A DNA stretch of 40,843 nt from an uncultured Erysipelotrichaceae bacterium (GTDB lineage Bacteria > Bacillota_I > Bacilli_A > RFN20 > CAG-826). Shown here piece after piece: positions 17,473-40,843 of the stretch. The translations under genes were made by a program, and so were the position numbers. The stretch spans positions 77,393 through 118,235 of the forward strand of contig CADCLZ010000001.1 in NCBI GenBank assembly GCA_902802365.1, written 5' to 3'. The first letter of the stretch is position 1, and each line of letters starts with the position of its first letter. The notes beneath the pieces were generated by a model, which saw only the letters and a program-made list of their open reading frames with translations, made no database searches and was not told the origin of the DNA.

Positions 17473-17530
17473 GATGAGATTATTATACGGGCGGATGGCT
17501 TTTTAATCCTTCTTTTCTTATAATGTTCCC

Positions 17531-17609
17531 GCCACCGCGAGGGAAGGCTTACGAACCAGGTCAGGTGGGGAACCAAGCAGCCTTAAGTTTGAATTCCTTG
17601 CGCGATGGT
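17531..17609 (+). ncRNA. ffs: Small bacterial SRP RNA (4.5S)
   Basis: Helix-8 signature GGTCAGGTGG-GGAA-CCAAGCAGCC; the ends pair (GCCACCGCG/CGCGATGGT); TATAAT at 17519-17524; T tract follows; next to tadA as in Bacilli. Confidence 0.9.
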
Positions 17610-17624
17610 TTTATTTTTTAAGCA

Positions 17625-36593: not shown

Positions 36594-37535
36594 ATGGAAA
36601 ACACAGTTATTCAAATTCAAGAACTATTAAATAGACGCGCTGAACTACAAGCCCGTTTAAACCTTTTGCCGTATGATGGCACTCCTGAAATTAAAACGAT
36701 TTCTAACAAGAAATATTTGTATATCCGCAAAAGAGAATTAGATAAAGTTAAATCCACCTATGTTGGTGAATATAGTGATGAACTCCATAACACCTTATTA
36801 AGAAATAATGTTGAAGCCAAAACCCTTCGCAAAGAAATTAGACAAATTGAAAAACAATTAGCGGTATTAGGCTATAAAGAAGAAGACTTATCGGAAAGAG
36901 TCGTTCTCAATCTAGATTTTGCTCGTTCTAATATGAAGAAGATCATTTATGATCAAGCCGTACTAGAAGGAGTGAGCACTACTTTTCCTGACACCGAGGC
37001 AATTATTGATAATGGCATTGTTAAAAATGTTAAAGCAGAAGACGTTCAAAAAATCATTAATCTAAAGCATGCCTGGCAGTTCATCTTGGACAAAGATGTT
37101 ATTCAAGCACCAAGCGATTATTATTTAGCCTCTTATATTGCTAGATTAGTTAACGAGGGATTATTAGCCATTCCTGATGGAGGAAGGATAAGAGGTGTAC
37201 CAGTGACTATTGGAGGTTCGTCATATATCCCTCCAATCCCTTTTGAAGATAAAGTTAAACAAGATATTAAAGACCTATTAGATTCTAATTTAGATGATAT
37301 TAATAAAGCCGTTGAACTCTGCCTGTATGTCATGAAGAGACAAATATATAACGACGGAAATAAAAGAACCGCAGTGGTGTACGCGAATCATTATCTTATT
37401 TCTAAAGGGCAGGGGTTATTAGTTATTGACTACAGTAAAGTTGATGATTTTAAAAAGCATTTAGTTAATTATTATGAAGATAAGGATTTAATTTCCATCA
37501 AGTCTTTCTTAAAAGATTGTTGGATGAAATTTTGA
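36594..37535 (+). CDS. Fic/DOC family protein with a non-canonical motif
   Basis: QAVLEG, GRIRGVPVTIGG, QIYNDGNKRTA. Confidence 0.88.
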   Translation: MENTVIQIQELLNRRAELQARLNLLPYDGTPEIKTISNKKYLYIRKRELDKVKSTYVGEYSDELHNTLLRNNVEAKTLRKEIRQIEKQLAVLGYKEEDLSERVVLNLDFARSNMKKIIYDQAVLEGVSTTFPDTEAIIDNGIVKNVKAEDVQKIINLKHAWQFILDKDVIQAPSDYYLASYIARLVNEGLLAIPDGGRIRGVPVTIGGSSYIPPIPFEDKVKQDIKDLLDSNLDDINKAVELCLYVMKRQIYNDGNKRTAVVYANHYLISKGQGLLVIDYSKVDDFKKHLVNYYEDKDLISIKSFLKDCWMKF

Positions 37536-37872
37536 TATATTGTCATCGCGGAGAAGCCTTATGATAAATGTCAAAATCGACAACGATATTTAGGCTTCAT
37601 AATCAATATCGAAAAAACAAAGAATCATTAAATTTGGTTGATGAGATTTCTTTGGTGGTCGCCCCTTACATCCAAAGGACTTCGAATTACAAGAACTTCG
37701 TCGATGTCGAGCGCCTTTTGACCATAAATACCGCTTCTTGGAAGCAAAGCCTTTGGGCGATGACGGGTCTGGCTACTTTTCAAAAGAAACAAAGGCTAAA
37801 AAGCGAGTTTCTACTTGTTAGGCGTCTTTAACATTTTGGGAGAAATAAGTATAGTTTTCATGGAGAAAAACC

Positions 37873-38508
37873 ATGAGCAAGAAATATGGCCCAAAGAAGA
37901 TGATGAACTCCTCAAGGTTCGTGGATCTTTTGGATGGCATGAGCCAAGAAGACCTTGATAAAGTCGCGGATAAAATCGGGGTTTATGTCAAAGAAAACCC
38001 CGAATATTGCGACAAAGGGAACTATCGGCACCTCTCTAACATTTTCACCTGCATGGCTATTTATCGGACTTTGATTGAAAAAGGGAAAAGTCCTCAGGAA
38101 GCCGAAGAAATCACCTTCAATGCGATGTATCAATATATGCAAAAGCAGCGGAAAACCTTCCAAAGGCTTTCCAAGAAAGGCTGGTTCTGGGGGCTTATCA
38201 AGAAGATCGTCCCGCTTGGCTTTAAAAAAGGAAGCGGCTATGGCTGGGAATACGCCTGGCATAAAGACGACCCGAAGAACCAGTTCAATTTCGAATGCAG
38301 GAGATGCATTTATCAGCAGCTTTTCAAGAAATATGACTTAGTCCGTTTTGGGCCGAAATTCTGCTATAACGACATCGTCGTTTATGGCGAATTGGATCGA
38401 ACCGATTTCAAGAGGACCAAAACCCTATGCCGCGGCGACGAGGAATGCGACTTCAAATTCGTGCGTTACAAAAAAGACGAGAAATTTGAAAGAAGCCAGA
38501 GCGTTTAA
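37873..38508 (+). CDS. L-2-amino-thiazoline-4-carboxylic acid hydrolase-family protein
   Basis: CIY...FCYND...RTKTLCRGDEECDF pattern; GGAG SD. Confidence 0.8.
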   Translation: MSKKYGPKKMMNSSRFVDLLDGMSQEDLDKVADKIGVYVKENPEYCDKGNYRHLSNIFTCMAIYRTLIEKGKSPQEAEEITFNAMYQYMQKQRKTFQRLSKKGWFWGLIKKIVPLGFKKGSGYGWEYAWHKDDPKNQFNFECRRCIYQQLFKKYDLVRFGPKFCYNDIVVYGELDRTDFKRTKTLCRGDEECDFKFVRYKKDEKFERSQSV

Positions 38509-38603
38509 ATCCGAAGAAACTTTTCATAACTTTTTATCGCACGCCAAAGAAAAACATCCTTTTAAGGATGCTTGTCTTTTTATAAAAGATTGATGGGCGA
38601 GGT

Positions 38604-39122
38604 TTAATCGCCGCTGGAGAAGGAAACGCTCGATCCTTCTTGGTTCCTGCGGTCCAAAATGCAATCAATCGCGATCACGAGGGCGCAGAAGAAGGCCTGG
38701 TCTTCGCTATCATCGATCGTCAAGACGAAGGAGTCGCGGAGCGAGACCCTGCGGGCGACGTGCCCAACATCGGCGCCGTTTTTCGTGACGCGGAAGTTGA
38801 AATCGAGGATGTTGCCGTCGAGGACGATCTCTTCGGGATAGCGATCCACGGTGAATTTGCTGCGAAGGGAGAGGAATTTCTTGGAGATGCGGCAGATGAT
38901 CTGCTTGTTCTCCGGATTGATGATGAAGGCGCGGCGGGTGAAGAGCCTCCAGAACTTGTTGCGGATGATGAAAAGCAGCTTGCCGTTTTTATCGTAGAAC
39001 CGCTTCTTGTGGGTGAAGGTGAAGATGTTGCCCTTCACTTCATAGATGTGGTTGTCCGCCATATCGGTGATGTAGGAGGATCCGCCGAGGGTGATCCATT
39101 TGTTTCTGATTTTGTATTCCAT
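38604..39122 (-). CDS. LURP-one-related / Tubby C-2 (scramblase-like) protein
   Basis: YEVKGNIFT, LDGNILDFNF, DSFVLTI, ALVIAID. Confidence 0.85.
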   Translation of the reverse strand: MEYKIRNKWITLGGSSYITDMADNHIYEVKGNIFTFTHKKRFYDKNGKLLFIIRNKFWRLFTRRAFIINPENKQIICRISKKFLSLRSKFTVDRYPEEIVLDGNILDFNFRVTKNGADVGHVARRVSLRDSFVLTIDDSEDQAFFCALVIAIDCILDRRNQEGSSVSFSSGD

Positions 39123-39394
39123 AAAGAACCTCTATAAGATTTTGCCACAGCCCCTTTTTCTAAAAAAAGAGTTTTTTATCATACACGTACGCCCGCGTAC
39201 ATATTTTCTTTTCTTATATATGCGATCGCCCGCAGATGTTCATTTCCAAGGCGTTTTAGAAAAGAAAATGAGGGAAAACAATATTTTCGGAGGGAGAAAA
39301 AACCAGAGAAAAGAAGAAATTTTCAAGAAAATAAATATATTTTAAAAAATCTTTTGAAGAAATTACTCCGATCACAAGCCACTTTTTAGGTTTT

Positions 39395-39454
39395 TCGAAA
39401 AAAATTTTAAAAAAATGTATTGACACACTCATATATAGGTGTAAACTAATCGAA
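39395..39454 (+). promoter_or_regulatory. Strong stable-RNA-type sigma-A promoter with UP element
   Basis: TTGACA 39420-39425, 16-bp spacer, TAAACT 39442-39447, preceded by AAAAAAATTTTAAAAAAAT. Confidence 0.8.
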
Positions 39455-40843
39455 CCCGCAAGGGAAACGGGGATGCGAATCTCCGACACTGCGGGAAGGA
39501 TCCAAGAGCTTGCTCTTGGATGCTAAAAGGAAAGCTGGACGCCCACGGTTCACTAAGAACCGGAAAGGCCCAACTCCTTCGAAAGAAGGGACCCAACGCC
39601 GCTTGAACGACGTTGGAGCAGGAATCTCCGCCCGCGGTAAACCGCAAAAGAGAGAGGCCTCCGGAAACCGGCGCAAGCCGGGAGGAAGGAAGGTCAAGGG
39701 CCCTGGCATTGAGCCAGGAAGCCACCGCCGAAATGACCCTGGCGGTCCGTGATCGGAAAAGAAAGGGAATTCCGAAAAGCCTTGGAAAAGGAACATTCGG
39801 AAGCAGGGAACAAGCGACTTCACGCTTCAGACCCTCGCGGGAACGGAAACGCCCGCCCAGTGCACTGGAAAAACGTTGCGTGCCGACAAAACCTCTCTCC
39901 CTGAGGCACAATGCGGCAAAGGGTAATACCCGCTAGGAATCCTCCCCAGCCTGGTAAACCAGAAAAACGAAGGAAGACGGGAAGAAACGGCCCCAAAACC
40001 GTGAAACCGCCAAATCGAGGAAGGCAACTTCCTCCAAAGGCATAGCCACCCATCAGGTAGACCTGAGAATCTGGCAGAAAGGAATGACCCCTCCGCAAGG
40101 GAGGCCATCCTGGAGAAGGGCTGCATCGAAAGATGATGTCCGCAACGGAATTCCTACCGTTGCCTAGTAGAACTAGGAATTCAAATCTGGAATGTGGAGC
40201 GATCCACAAAGGAGCTCAAAACTCCAAGCCCCGAAGAAAGGCTCAGGTAAACCGAAAAATCTCTTCTCCCTCCATCTCCTCCCATCGTGAAATCCCTTGG
40301 TGAGATGTCTGGGTAGCCACCTTAACTGGTGCGGCGGGAGCCTCTCCGCCAAGTGAAACTTGAAGATGAGGTTGCGAATCACAATCTGGCTTCGGCCTCG
40401 GGGTGATCCGTGAACGCCTGGAAATTCATAACCAGGTCGGTGCCAATAGAGGCTCGGCGCGCGGTAAACCGCTGGAAAAGCCTCGACCCTAGGCTACGGT
40501 CTAGGCGAGATCGAAGACGCAAGTCCTCGAAGGAAGTCGTTCCACCCTGCAATTCGTGAAGTCGGAACGTGGCAAAGATACTTAGGCGAACGAAGACGTA
40601 CCCTAAGATCGATGTCGAGACCTGCTAGAAGCAATTCAATACAGGCCTAGGAAGATAAGAGATCTTCTCGCCGGTAAACCGGAGAAACAAAAACTTGATC
40701 CTGAATGCGATTCCCTTTCAAGAAGGAACCGAGGTAAGGACCGATTCCCTCGGGAAGTGGCTGGTTGGAATCTCCCACACGGTAAACCGTAAACATGAAA
40801 TCCCCCGTCAACTTCGGAGTCTTGAAGACGTTAACTCGAAAGA
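39453..40843 (+). ncRNA. Putative very large (>=1.35 kb) highly structured noncoding RNA, family unassigned; 3' end may lie beyond the window
   Basis: No credible ORF; near-continuous hairpins with GNRA, UUCG, UACG and CUUG loops on the + strand; long-range helices; A-rich linkers; begins directly at the promoter. Confidence 0.8.
39634..40790 (+). repeat. Seven dispersed GG-TA(A/G)A-CC hairpins
   Basis: GGTAAACC at 39636, 39953, 40246, 40463, 40673, 40781 and GGTAGACC at 40056, with differing but complementary flanks. Confidence 0.85.

What the first reader, a model, noticed from the sequence alone, without database searches (positions are those of the whole stretch)
39621..40795. Repeated GG-UARA-CC hairpin module with internal covariation
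Seen: GCGG-UAAA-CCGC (39634, 40461), CUGG-UAAA-CCAG (39951), UCAGG-UAGA-CCUGA (40053), UCAGG-UAAA-CCGA (40243, one bulge), CCGG-UAAA-CCGG (40671) and ACGG-UAAA-CCGU (40779). Six exact 8-mers occur where about 0.02 are expected for a given 8-mer in 1.4 kb. Outer base pairs change while staying complementary, which is covariation within one molecule. Three copies follow GGAAUC plus an 8-11 nt C-rich strand, and most are followed by an A run. Spacings of 317, 103, 190, 217, 210 and 108 are near multiples of ~105. Inference: a reiterated protein-binding or tertiary-docking element (sponge, scaffold or self-assembling RNA), possibly built by ancient duplication of a unit, or an array processed into smaller RNAs.
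Basis: partly seen in the sequence, partly recalled or inferred. Interest (0 to 1): 0.78.

Follow-up and report, generated by a model that had tools for sequence, protein, structure and literature searches.

The report
Giant repeat-built structured RNA, rumen Bacilli

Summary
GGTARACC occurs 7 times in the window, all on the + strand within 39636-40788 (0.93 expected). The region is a promoter-to-terminator gene for a non-coding RNA of about 1.43-1.47 kb, cut about 40 nt short by the contig end. It matches no Rfam family. An alignment of 27 homologues supports 74 helices (91% of cells paired; 252 of 378 pairs change on both sides). The hairpins sit at homologous positions and their stems covary.

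The motif belongs to a larger pattern. Eleven hairpins with U..A loops lie about 104 nt apart. Seven of them abut a second hairpin whose loop pairs with the strand after the A-run, forming a pseudoknot module. A model built from one module finds three others in the same RNA.

The RNA occurs in 20 of 58 species of one genus, in 1-3 copies, and was not found in 150 other genomes of the family, in phages or in plasmids. Transcript-sized contigs and metatranscriptome runs hold it.

Function is unknown. My reading is a repeat-built scaffold presenting identical loops for RNA docking or protein binding. Processing into small RNAs is not supported.

The parts
39420..39447 (+). Sigma-70-type promoter: TTGACA, 16-nt spacer, TAAACT. 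The start of transcription is predicted near 39453-39455.
   Evidence: 10 of 12 matches. The same promoter position is conserved in homologues. The 5'-most identical RNA-run contig starts at 39462.
39453..40843 (+). Gene for the large structured non-coding RNA. It is cut by the contig end about 40 nt before its terminator; homologues are about 1.43-1.47 kb.
   Evidence: No conserved ORF and no Rfam match. The window ends at the contig end. 74 helices with covariation. A conserved terminator in homologues.
39634..39645 (+). Hairpin H12, GCGG-UAAA-CCGC, enclosed by outer helix H11 (39626-39655).
   Evidence: GGUARACC is kept in 70 of 83 homologues, with 48 distinct stem variants.
39725..39757 (+). 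Unit B module: c hairpin H16 (39725-39745) abutting d hairpin H17 (39746-39757, loop GUGAUC).
39737..39767 (+). Pseudoknot of unit B: CCCU (39737-39740) in the H16 loop pairs with AGGG (39764-39767) after H17.
   Evidence: 96.3% of cells paired; 2 of 4 pairs change on both sides.
39837..39868 (+). Unit C module: c hairpin H23 (39837-39856) abutting d hairpin H24 (39857-39868, CCAG-UGCA-CUGG).
   Evidence: Model R2 hit 39836-39875, 18.4 bits, E 2.4e-6. G-UNNA-C is kept in 74 of 83 homologues.
39933..39962 (+). Unit D module: c hairpin H28 (39933-39949, loop GAAUCCU) and d hairpin H29 (39951-39962, CUGG-UAAA-CCAG).
   Evidence: GGUARACC in 63 of 83 homologues.
39941..39973 (+). Pseudoknot of unit D: CCU (39941-39943) in the H28 loop pairs with AGG (39971-39973).
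   Evidence: 100% of cells paired; pair 598-628 shows UA, UG, CG and AU.
40037..40065 (+). Unit E module: c hairpin H33 (40037-40053) abutting d hairpin H34 (40054-40065, CAGG-UAGA-CCUG).
   Evidence: Most homologues have the five-base loop form GAUAGGAUC here; GGUARACC is present in 6 of 83.
40143..40177 (+). Unit F module: c hairpin H38 (40143-40162) abutting d hairpin H39 (40163-40177, loop UAGAA).
40151..40192 (+). Pseudoknot of unit F: UUCC (40151-40154) in the H38 loop pairs with GGAA (40189-40192).
   Evidence: 3 of 4 pairs change on both sides.
40244..40254 (+). Hairpin H44 (C-A-GG-UAAA-CC-G, one unpaired A), enclosed by H43 (40233-40266).
   Evidence: GGUARACC in 65 of 83 homologues.
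40351..40361 (+). Hairpin H51 (AAG-UGAAA-CUU), a five-base U..A loop inside H49 (40339-40373).
40413..40486 (+). Most conserved core (helices 53-55), including the invariant hairpin H55, GCGG-UAAA-CCGC, at 40461-40472.
   Evidence: Alignment A2, model R1. GGUARACC in 82 of 83 homologues.
40651..40685 (+). Unit K module: c hairpin H63 (40651-40667) abutting d hairpin H64 (40668-40685, CCGG-UAAA-CCGG).
   Evidence: R2 hit 40648-40688, 24.7 bits, E 2.8e-9. Most homologues read GGUACACC here.
40757..40790 (+). Unit L module: c hairpin H68 (40757-40778, holds UUGGAAUC) abutting d hairpin H69 (40779-40790, ACGG-UAAA-CCGU).
   Evidence: R2 hit 40751-40797, 14.1 bits, E 2.4e-4. GGUARACC in 79 of 83 homologues.

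Best explanation
Shown:
- Window 39453-40843 is most of a stand-alone gene, with its own promoter and (in homologues) its own terminator.
- It encodes a ~1.43-1.47-kb, A-rich and U-poor, non-coding, very highly structured RNA of a family not in Rfam.
- The RNA is built of about twelve consecutive structural units of roughly 104 nt, each with 3-4 hairpins.
- Eleven units end in a short hairpin closed by G-C (A-U at H34 in most homologues) whose loop begins with U and ends with A (UARA, UGCA, UACA, or the five-base UAGAA, UGAAA, UAGGA). An A-rich run follows.
- The strict GG-UARA-CC form holds five positions family-wide and seven in this copy.
- In seven units this 'd' hairpin directly abuts a 'c' hairpin.
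- In at least three units (four to five by per-sequence complementarity) the c loop, often GAAUCC-like, pairs with the strand after the A-run. This makes an H-type pseudoknot in which the d hairpin plus A-run form the third loop.

Inferred:
- The A-run lies in the groove of the G+C-rich c stem.
- The d hairpin stacks on the c stem. Each unit is then a rigid block that holds an identical small loop outward at a regular interval.
- The RNA holds no UUUA, so these loops cannot form Watson-Crick kissing pairs with the same RNA. I read them as repeated non-Watson-Crick docking points that pack units against each other, within one chain or between chains. The result would be a large compact RNA body of the ROOL/GOLLD/OLE kind.
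- The cellular role is unknown.
For: Gene and ends:
- Promoter. Conserved promoter and terminator in homologues with unrelated flanks.
- Of 80 metagenome contigs, 23 start and 26 end at the RNA's ends, and 14 do both at 1,358-1,453 nt.
- Contigs identical to the window stand in three metatranscriptome runs from three studies.

Structure:
- 378 pairs in 74 helices; 91.1% of cells paired against 36-46% when slid.
- 252 pairs change on both sides (shuffle mean 160; 0 of 500 shuffles reach it).
- 106 of the top 150 mutual-information pairs fall in the predicted structure.

Motif.

Period:
- Eleven loop centres give a best period of 103 nt, R = 0.898, reached by 1 of 20,000 random placements.
- Spacings are conserved in 79 sequences, sd 2-10 nt.

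Module:
- Model R2, built from one unit only, finds three other units in the window at E 2.8e-9 to 2.4e-4, with one hit elsewhere in 40.8 kb.
- In ten homologous loci, 25 of 28 hits lie inside the RNAs.

Pseudoknots:
-.
- 95.3% of cells paired against at most 66% when slid; covariation score 0.439 against 0.178; 0 of 500 shuffles.
- Per-sequence complementarity exceeds shuffled loops in units B-F.

Composition: A 30%, U 16%, unpaired columns 41% A, no UUUA.
Against: - No three-dimensional data exist; stacking, groove contacts and docking are inference.
- The conserved GG/CC closing pairs go beyond what generic tetraloops need and fit sequence-specific protein readout equally well.
- No covariation-supported long-range helix was found. 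The four that RNAalifold proposed have no change on both sides. So the supported map is a string of local modules, and a compact fold is not shown.
- The pseudoknot helices were picked from the same sequences used to test them, so overstates their support. Units K and L show no covariation for one.
- The set of eleven 'U..A' hairpins was defined after seeing the data.
- The window copy may be an assembly mosaic.
Confidence: 0.5

Rival explanations
1. Multivalent protein scaffold or sponge. The same RNA and modules, but the periodic GG-UARA-CC tips are binding sites for many copies of one RNA-binding protein. The RNA would then titrate, store or organise that protein, as CsrB/RsmZ do for CsrA or as OLE organises its partner proteins.
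For: - Eight conserved letters, including two closing G-C pairs, at five family-wide positions, while the stems below vary freely.
- Regular spacing.
- No complementary UUUA in the RNA.
- Metatranscriptome runs hold the RNA, including a small one of 11.1 million letters of contigs.
Against: - No conserved neighbouring protein gene. Neighbours differ between loci: M18 aminopeptidase at 5 loci, an ABC ATPase at 4, others unique.
- In sponge RNAs only the binding hairpins are conserved. Here the whole 1.45 kb is conserved and covaries (68% mean column identity; 74 helices).
- No candidate protein was identified.
Confidence: 0.3
2. Packaging or encapsidation signals. The evenly spaced identical hairpins recruit subunits of a protein shell or filament around the RNA, as dispersed coat-protein-binding hairpins do in single-stranded RNA phages.
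For: - Periodic identical hairpins.
- A discrete transcript of fixed length.
Against: - The RNA is encoded in bacterial chromosomal contigs with ordinary neighbours.
- No match in phage, plasmid or viral collections.
- No capsid-like gene nearby.
Confidence: 0.05
3. Precursor array. The long transcript is cut at or near each hairpin into about 100-nt small RNAs.
For: Regular ~104-nt spacing of a conserved hairpin.
Against: - Fourteen of 80 contigs span the RNA end to end and 26 reach its 3' end.
- The units differ in sequence, and the conserved helices and pseudoknots between the d hairpins have no obvious role in a precursor made to be cut.
- Contigs cannot show minor cleavage products, so this is not excluded.
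Confidence: 0.04
4. A divergent member of a known RNA family (ROOL, GOLLD, OLE, rRNA, group II intron, RNase P) or a DNA-level repeat or chance pattern.
For: Same habitat and host phylum as ROOL (the name and habitat are stated in the abstract shown).
Against: - No Rfam family matches at the gathering score, at E up to 10 on the window region, or at E up to 0.1 on five full-length homologues.
- The motif is strand-specific with compensatory stem changes.
- 0 of 100 shuffles reach the observed count.
Confidence: 0.02

Closest known systems
ROOL, GOLLD and OLE (large ornate bacterial non-coding RNAs)
   Same: - Large, stand-alone, non-coding and densely structured, with covariation.
- Rich in unpaired adenines and pseudoknots.
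- Function unknown; Bacillota hosts; ROOL was named for the rumen.
- Those RNAs use A-minor contacts and loop contacts to build RNA-only assemblies (bioRxiv 10.1101/2024.12.08.627333: abstract and passages seen).
   Different: - No sequence or structure match to any of them.
- About 1.45 kb, against 'exceeding 800 nucleotides' for GOLLD, the largest of the three (passage).
- Not in phages or prophages and not beside tRNA islands.
- Built of about twelve ~104-nt repeat units with one recurring loop type, which I have not seen reported for those RNAs (recalled).
- Oligomerisation was not tested.
CsrB/RsmZ-type protein-sponge RNAs
   Same: One short motif is presented many times in hairpin loops along a single non-coding RNA.
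   Different: From recall, those motifs are GGA in the loop, the RNAs are a few hundred nt, and little is conserved between hairpins. Here the loop is UARA with GG/CC closing pairs, the units are ~104 nt, and the whole RNA covaries. No partner protein is known.
H-type pseudoknots with an A-rich third loop (e.g. luteovirus frameshift and telomerase RNA pseudoknots; recalled)
   Same: The topology stem 1 / loop / stem 2, with an A-rich strand positioned to cross stem 1. Stem 2 is supported by covariation in three units.
   Different: A whole hairpin (the GG-UARA-CC one) is inserted at the start of loop 3. The module is reiterated up to seven times in one RNA. Triplex contacts were not tested.
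UA-handle / T-loop-type motifs (recalled)
   Same: A U and an A flank 2-3 exposed bases and are stacked on a Watson-Crick closing pair (G-C, or A-U at H34 in most homologues). Four-base and five-base forms replace each other at one position: GAUAGGAUC versus GGUAGACC at H34.
   Different: The geometry is unknown. T-loops usually carry extra bulged bases and an intercalating partner. This is a resemblance only.

Membership tests
ROOL / GOLLD / OLE (Rfam families) | Match to the family covariance model at or near its gathering score | tested here: not met
   All 4,227 Rfam 15 families were searched. The only window hit is SRP RNA at 17529-17614. Nothing relevant at E up to 10 on 39100-40843. Nothing at E up to 0.1 on five full-length homologues.
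Large ornate bacterial ncRNA (informal kind) | Several hundred nt or more, non-coding, many covariation-supported helices, own promoter and terminator | tested here: met
   About 1.45 kb. 74 helices, 252 of 378 pairs changed on both sides. Promoter and terminator.
Large ornate bacterial ncRNA (informal kind) | Forms a defined tertiary or quaternary assembly | not testable with these tools
   No RNA 3-D prediction or experiment is available.
CsrB/RsmZ-type sponge | Repeated GGA-containing hairpin loops | tested here: not met
   The recurring loops are UAAA, UAGA, UACA, UGCA or U(R)3A.
CsrB/RsmZ-type sponge | Binds many copies of a partner protein | not testable with these tools
   No partner was identified, and neighbours are not conserved.
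H-type pseudoknot module | The loop of stem 1 pairs with a strand 3' of stem 1, with compensatory changes | tested here: met
   Three units: 95.3% of cells paired, 39 cells changed on both sides against a shuffle mean of 13. Per-sequence complementarity is enriched in units B-F. Caveat: the pairs were chosen from overlapping data.
H-type pseudoknot module | A-rich loop 3 forms minor-groove triples with stem 1 | not testable with these tools
   Only the A-run and the G+C-rich c stem are seen.
Tandem sequence repeat (duplicated unit) | Detectable sequence similarity across whole units | tested here: inconclusive
   Block-profile self-search finds only 30-60-nt similarities, E about 1e-4 to 1e-5. 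The module model finds three other units. Period and hairpin count per unit are regular.

The most novel reading that the evidence does not exclude
A single-chain 'RNA solenoid'. About twelve tandem pseudoknot units of ~104 nt stack or curl into a regular rod, ring or cage, each unit contacting the next through its GG-UARA-CC tip and A-run. This would be an intramolecular counterpart of the homo-oligomeric ROOL/GOLLD cages, and the first repeat-fold architecture known for a natural RNA, possibly decorated by one protein per unit.
Probability: 0.2. Interest if true: 0.95.

Novelty: new variant of a known kind. Interest (0 to 1): 0.85.

Why it matters
To my knowledge this would be the largest structured bacterial non-coding RNA class apart from ribosomal RNA, nearly twice the size of GOLLD. 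It is carried in 1-3 copies by bacteria with genomes of only 1-2.4 Mb, and ruminant-gut metatranscriptome runs hold it.

Its regular, unit-by-unit build offers a natural test case for how very large RNAs are constructed and evolve, whether by duplication of a pseudoknot module or otherwise. Its recurring loop may define a new tertiary or protein-recognition motif.

The RNA is a ready target for cryo-EM, like ROOL, GOLLD and OLE. It also adds a marker for an uncultured rumen lineage.

Tried and rejected
- **Rfam.** Gathering and permissive thresholds gave no family.
- **Mobile elements.** Phage and plasmid BLAST and an IMG/VR pattern scan found nothing.
- **Gene neighbourhood.** No conserved neighbour. 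The recurrent ones (M18 aminopeptidase, ABC ATPase) are ordinary.
- **Other GGTAGACC pairs in the genome.** The pair on C42 was checked and lies in coding sequence; the pairs on C6 and C50 were not looked at. Other genome hits of the module model lie inside long ORFs.
- **Long-range helices.** RNAalifold's helices 6, 18, 30 and 42 have no change on both sides. Helices 18 and 30 clash with the pseudoknots, so I dropped all four.
- **Kissing-loop dimerisation.** I considered palindromic loops: GAAUUC in helix 53 and UGCA in helix 24. The palindromes are not conserved (GAAUAC, GAAUCC; UACA, UAGA).
- **Whole-unit sequence repeats.** Not detectable.
- **Read laying.** RNA-run contigs cover only 39462 onward and none of 37500-39403. 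The run guessed to be DNA shows the same, so this says nothing about transcription limits. No listed contig bridges 40138 with 31 or more letters on both sides.
- **Unit L.** Pseudoknot complementarity is not above shuffled.
- **Literature.** Searches for a description of this RNA found none. This does not prove it is unpublished. Supplementary files were not consulted.
Full report
**1. The observation**

The pattern GGTARACC occurs seven times in the 40,843-base window. All seven are on the + strand between 39636 and 40788. Dinucleotide-preserving shuffles gave a mean of 0.93 and never more than 4.

In the whole 1.16-Mb genome there are 39 sites on both strands, against 125 for the reversed control pattern. 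Eleven of the 39 lie in the 2,114 nt that belong to two copies of one RNA gene. Nine of those 11 have at least two further flanking base pairs, against 5 of 28 elsewhere. One other pair of sites, on C42, was checked and lies in coding sequence. The motif is therefore about 400-fold enriched here and is not a genome-wide word.

**2. What the region is**

- No long conserved ORF covers 39450-40843.
- A sigma-70-type promoter, TTGACA-16-TAAACT, sits at 39420-39447.
- The window ends at the end of contig C1.
- A second, partial copy (71% identical) lies at the end of contig C2. It runs into a strong intrinsic terminator about 95 nt after its last GGTAGACC.

Homologues were found as follows:
- BLAST found them in 8 of 24 sampled genomes of the same genus and in 0 of 16 genomes from other families of the order.
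- An exact 23-letter pattern scan of one genome per species (185,579 species) found 36 loci. All are in gut or rumen metagenome-assembled genomes labelled Bacilli, Erysipelotrichaceae, Bacillales, Firmicutes or Candidatus Enteromonas. Several genomes have two or three loci.

From these I extracted 28 distinct full-length copies. They share the promoter position, an A+T-rich upstream tract and the terminator CACCACGCAGCGAUGCGUGGCGUUUUCUUUU. Their flanks are unrelated. From predicted start to terminator the RNA is about 1.43-1.47 kb. The window copy lacks about 40 nt at its 3' end.

Rfam 15 (4,227 families) gives no match. This holds at gathering scores on the window, at E up to 10 on the region, and at E up to 0.1 on five full-length homologues.

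**3. Structure**

I aligned 27 copies (alignment A1, 1,640 columns, 68% mean column identity). I folded the alignment with RNAalifold in a script, because the folding tool refuses more than 1,500 columns.

Counting that structure on A1 gave:
- 378 pairs in 74 helices.
- 91.1% of cells form standard pairs, against 36-46% when partners are slid by 1-3 columns.
- 252 pairs have changes on both sides (shuffle mean 160; 0 of 500 shuffles reach it).
- Covariation score 0.413 against 0.173.

Of the top 150 corrected mutual-information pairs in an 83-sequence alignment, 106 are predicted pairs.

Four long-range helices proposed by RNAalifold have no change on both sides, and I dropped them. The firm map is thus a long series of local hairpins with 48 hairpin loops.

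The RNA is 30% A and 16% U, while the genome has about 23.5% of each. Unpaired columns are 41% A.

**4. The hairpins in the family**

The window's seven copies are helices 12, 29, 34, 44, 55, 64 and 69. In 83 sequences (27 plus 56 from metagenome contigs), GGUARACC is kept as follows:

| Helix | GGUARACC kept | Note |
|---|---|---|
| H12 | 70 of 83 | 48 distinct stem variants |
| H29 | 63 of 83 | |
| H44 | 65 of 83 | |
| H55 | 82 of 83 | invariant hairpin |
| H69 | 79 of 83 | |
| H64 | 23 of 83 | mostly GGUACACC; G-UNNA-C in 79 of 83 |
| H34 | 6 of 83 | mostly the five-base loop form GAUAGGAUC |

Related loops close other hairpins:
- H24: GUGCAC, GUACAC (G-UNNA-C in 74 of 83).
- H17: variable.
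- H39: UAGAA.
- H51: UGAAA.

The common denominator is a closing Watson-Crick pair (G-C; A-U at H34 in most homologues), a first loop U, a last loop A, and two or three exposed bases in between. The stems below vary with compensation. For example, H29 shows CG 14 and UA 13 at one pair, and H69 shows GC 14 and AU 11.

**5. Periodicity and the larger module**

The loop centres of the eleven U..A hairpins in the window are 39639, 39752, 39862, 39956, 40060, 40170, 40249, 40356, 40466, 40676 and 40784. The spacings are 113, 110, 94, 104, 110, 79, 107, 110, 210 and 108.
- The best period is 103 nt with R = 0.898. One of 20,000 random placements reaches it.
- The spacings are conserved in 79 sequences, sd 2-10 nt.
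The best period is 104 nt, R = 0.937, reached by 43 of 20,000 placements.

Between successive U..A hairpins there are regularly two or three other hairpins.

In seven units the U..A hairpin ('d') abuts, with 0-2 nt between, a preceding hairpin ('c'). The pairs are H16-17, H23-24, H28-29, H33-34, H38-39, H63-64 and H68-69. GAAnAA-like runs follow them. The GGAAUC lies in or beside the c loop.

A covariance model built only from the H28-29 module of 27 sequences (A3, R2) was run over the whole window with filters off:

| Hit | Bits | E-value |
|---|---|---|
| Itself (39931-39969) | 51.7 | 6.1e-22 |
| 40648-40688 | 24.7 | 2.8e-9 |
| 39836-39875 | 18.4 | 2.4e-6 |
| 40751-40797 | 14.1 | 2.4e-4 |

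There is a single comparable hit elsewhere, antisense inside a 979-aa ORF.
- Genome-wide, the non-RNA hits lie in long ORFs.
- In ten homologous loci, including the divergent subfamily, 25 of 28 hits at E up to 0.01 lie inside the RNAs, 2-4 per RNA.
- Profile self-searches with 140-column blocks find only these 30-60-nt similarities and no whole-unit sequence repeat.

**6. Pseudoknots**

Mutual information pointed to pairs outside the nested structure. In units B, D and F, bases in the c loop pair with the strand just after the d hairpin and its A-run. The columns are 373-376/402-405, 596-598/628-630 and 836-839/878-881. In the window these are CCCU/AGGG, CCU/AGG and UUCC/GGAA.

Counted on A1:
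- 95.3% of cells paired, against at most 66% when slid.
- 39 cells changed on both sides, against a shuffle mean of 13.
- Covariation score 0.439 against 0.178 (0 of 500 shuffles).

These pairs were selected from overlapping data, so the figures are generous.

A per-sequence test does not rely on the alignment of variable loops. It shows helices of at least 5 bp between the c loop and the 3' flank in:
- Unit C: 47 of 76 sequences (shuffled loops 26%).
- Unit D: 44 of 82 (17%).
- Unit F: 60 of 83 (28%).
- Unit E: 21 of 83 (10%).

Many different sequences form these helices. Unit L is not enriched, and unit K is invariant.

The module is therefore an H-type pseudoknot. Stem 1 is the c stem, and stem 2 is the c loop with the 3' strand. 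The d hairpin plus A-run make up the third loop.

**7. Distribution and expression**

A covariance model of the most conserved 74 nt (R1) gave:
- No match in 150 other genomes of the family, from 48 genera.
- Matches in 20 of 58 genomes of the genus (G000 included), 1-3 per genome. Among genomes at least 90% complete, 5 of 32 match.

There is no match in phage or plasmid collections, nor in viral contigs.

The 23-letter pattern found 103 stretches in metagenome contigs, of which 80 were returned. Among these 80:
- 23 begin within model positions 46-52 with at most 2 nt beyond. That is 7-13 nt after the predicted start.
- 26 end at positions 1449-1467 with at most 3 nt beyond. That is at or just before the terminator stem.
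- 14 do both, with lengths of 1,358-1,453 nt.
- 13 carry the whole RNA with at least 100 nt of flank on both sides.

Contigs that match the RNA end to end are what transcript assemblies would give. I did not check what kind of sample each record is.

Fourteen runs on record as RNA, from bovine or sheep gut, hold 0.47-0.63 of the sampled words. Three of them, from three studies, were laid. They hold contigs identical to the window from 39462, 39473 and 39497 onward. A run guessed to be DNA shows the same coverage pattern. The lack of cover on the flanking genes is therefore not evidence.

**8. How it most likely works**

Shown:
- A discrete, conserved, multi-copy, very highly structured RNA.
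- It is made of about twelve ~104-nt units.
- The GG-UARA-CC hairpin is the conserved cap of a pseudoknot module.

Inferred:
- The d hairpin stacks on the c stem.
- The A-run runs along a groove of the G+C-rich c stem.
- The small loop is held out at regular intervals.

The RNA contains no UUUA, so the loops cannot pair by Watson-Crick rules with the same RNA or with another copy. They must be read by non-canonical RNA contacts or by protein.

I favour RNA docking that packs the units into a compact body (0.5). The grounds are the adenine-rich unpaired regions, the many GNRA loops, the conservation of the entire molecule and the lack of any conserved protein gene nearby. There is also the precedent of ROOL, GOLLD and OLE (abstract and passages of 10.1101/2024.12.08.627333).

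A multivalent protein scaffold is the main rival (0.3). It is favoured by the sequence-specific GG/CC closing pairs and by the regular spacing.

Processing into small RNAs (0.04) is disfavoured by the full-length contigs. Packaging signals (0.05) are disfavoured by the chromosomal, non-viral context.

**9. Comparison and novelty**

The RFAM membership test for ROOL, GOLLD, OLE and every other family is negative. The RNA fits the informal kind 'large ornate bacterial non-coding RNA'. It differs in three ways:
- Size: about 1.45 kb, against more than 800 nt for GOLLD, the largest of the three in that paper.
- Genomic context.
- Periodic, repeat-unit architecture with one recurring loop type.

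Six literature searches found no description of it. That does not prove it is unpublished, and supplementary files were not consulted.

I rate it a new variant of a known kind. The repeat-fold reading would be categorically new if true.

**10. Caveats**

- The window copy is a mosaic. From about alignment column 840 (window about 40140) onward it is 99.5-100% identical to the copies in L069 and L066, from other genomes. Its 5' part is only 42-62% identical to them. A stretch around columns 440-639 is 85.8% identical to L045. This is either recombination between RNA genes or an assembly chimera.
- Both copies in this genome sit at contig ends.
- None of this affects the family-level conclusions, because every member shows the same architecture.

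Noticed in passing
window 40140-40843 versus L069, L066; window ~39810-39990 versus L045: The window's RNA copy is a mosaic. Its 3' ~700 nt are 99.5-100% identical to copies in two other loci from other genomes, while its 5' part is 42-62% identical to them. A middle stretch is 85.8% identical to L045. This is either recombination or gene conversion between RNA genes, or a chimeric assembly. No laid contig bridges 40138.
   Followed up: partly
G000:C1 end (window 40843) and G000:C2:72796-73513: Both copies of the RNA in this genome are cut by contig ends, so the assembly breaks inside this gene. The true copy number may be higher than two.
   Followed up: partly
L031, L039, L043, L057, L063 and G000:C2 copy (L002): A divergent, longer subfamily shares the invariant core but reads GCGUGCGG there. 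It has the same promoter and terminator layout and 2-4 module hits. It coexists with the main type in one genome (for example G017 contigs C3 and C18).
   Followed up: partly
L014, L015, L016, L017, L020, L028: about 45-60 nt upstream of the -35 box: A conserved palindrome, TAGATAC(n4)GTATCTA, sits inside an A+T-rich tract upstream of the RNA promoter in several copies with unrelated flanks. It may be an operator or part of an UP-like element. It is not obvious in the window copy.
   Followed up: no
L075-L154 (transcript-sized contigs): Contigs that match the RNA end to end stop at model positions 1449-1467. That is before or in the 5' arm of the terminator hairpin, 15-30 nt short of the U-tract. 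They start 7-13 nt after the predicted start. The cause could be end trimming in the cell or an edge effect of assembly.
   Followed up: no
window 17529-17614 (+): Bacterial small SRP RNA, 48.5 bits. This is the only Rfam match in the window.
   Followed up: no
window 38604-39122 (-); L015:2128-2837: The gene divergent from the RNA promoter in the window encodes a 172-aa LURP-one-related (LOR) family protein. One homologous locus has a RelB/PIN toxin-antitoxin pair just downstream of the RNA. Neither is conserved across loci.
   Followed up: partly
window 39921-39931: Helix 27 (GGG-UAAUA-CCC; GGGUAACNCCC in relatives) is another small U-first loop. It does not fall on the ~104-nt register.
   Followed up: no
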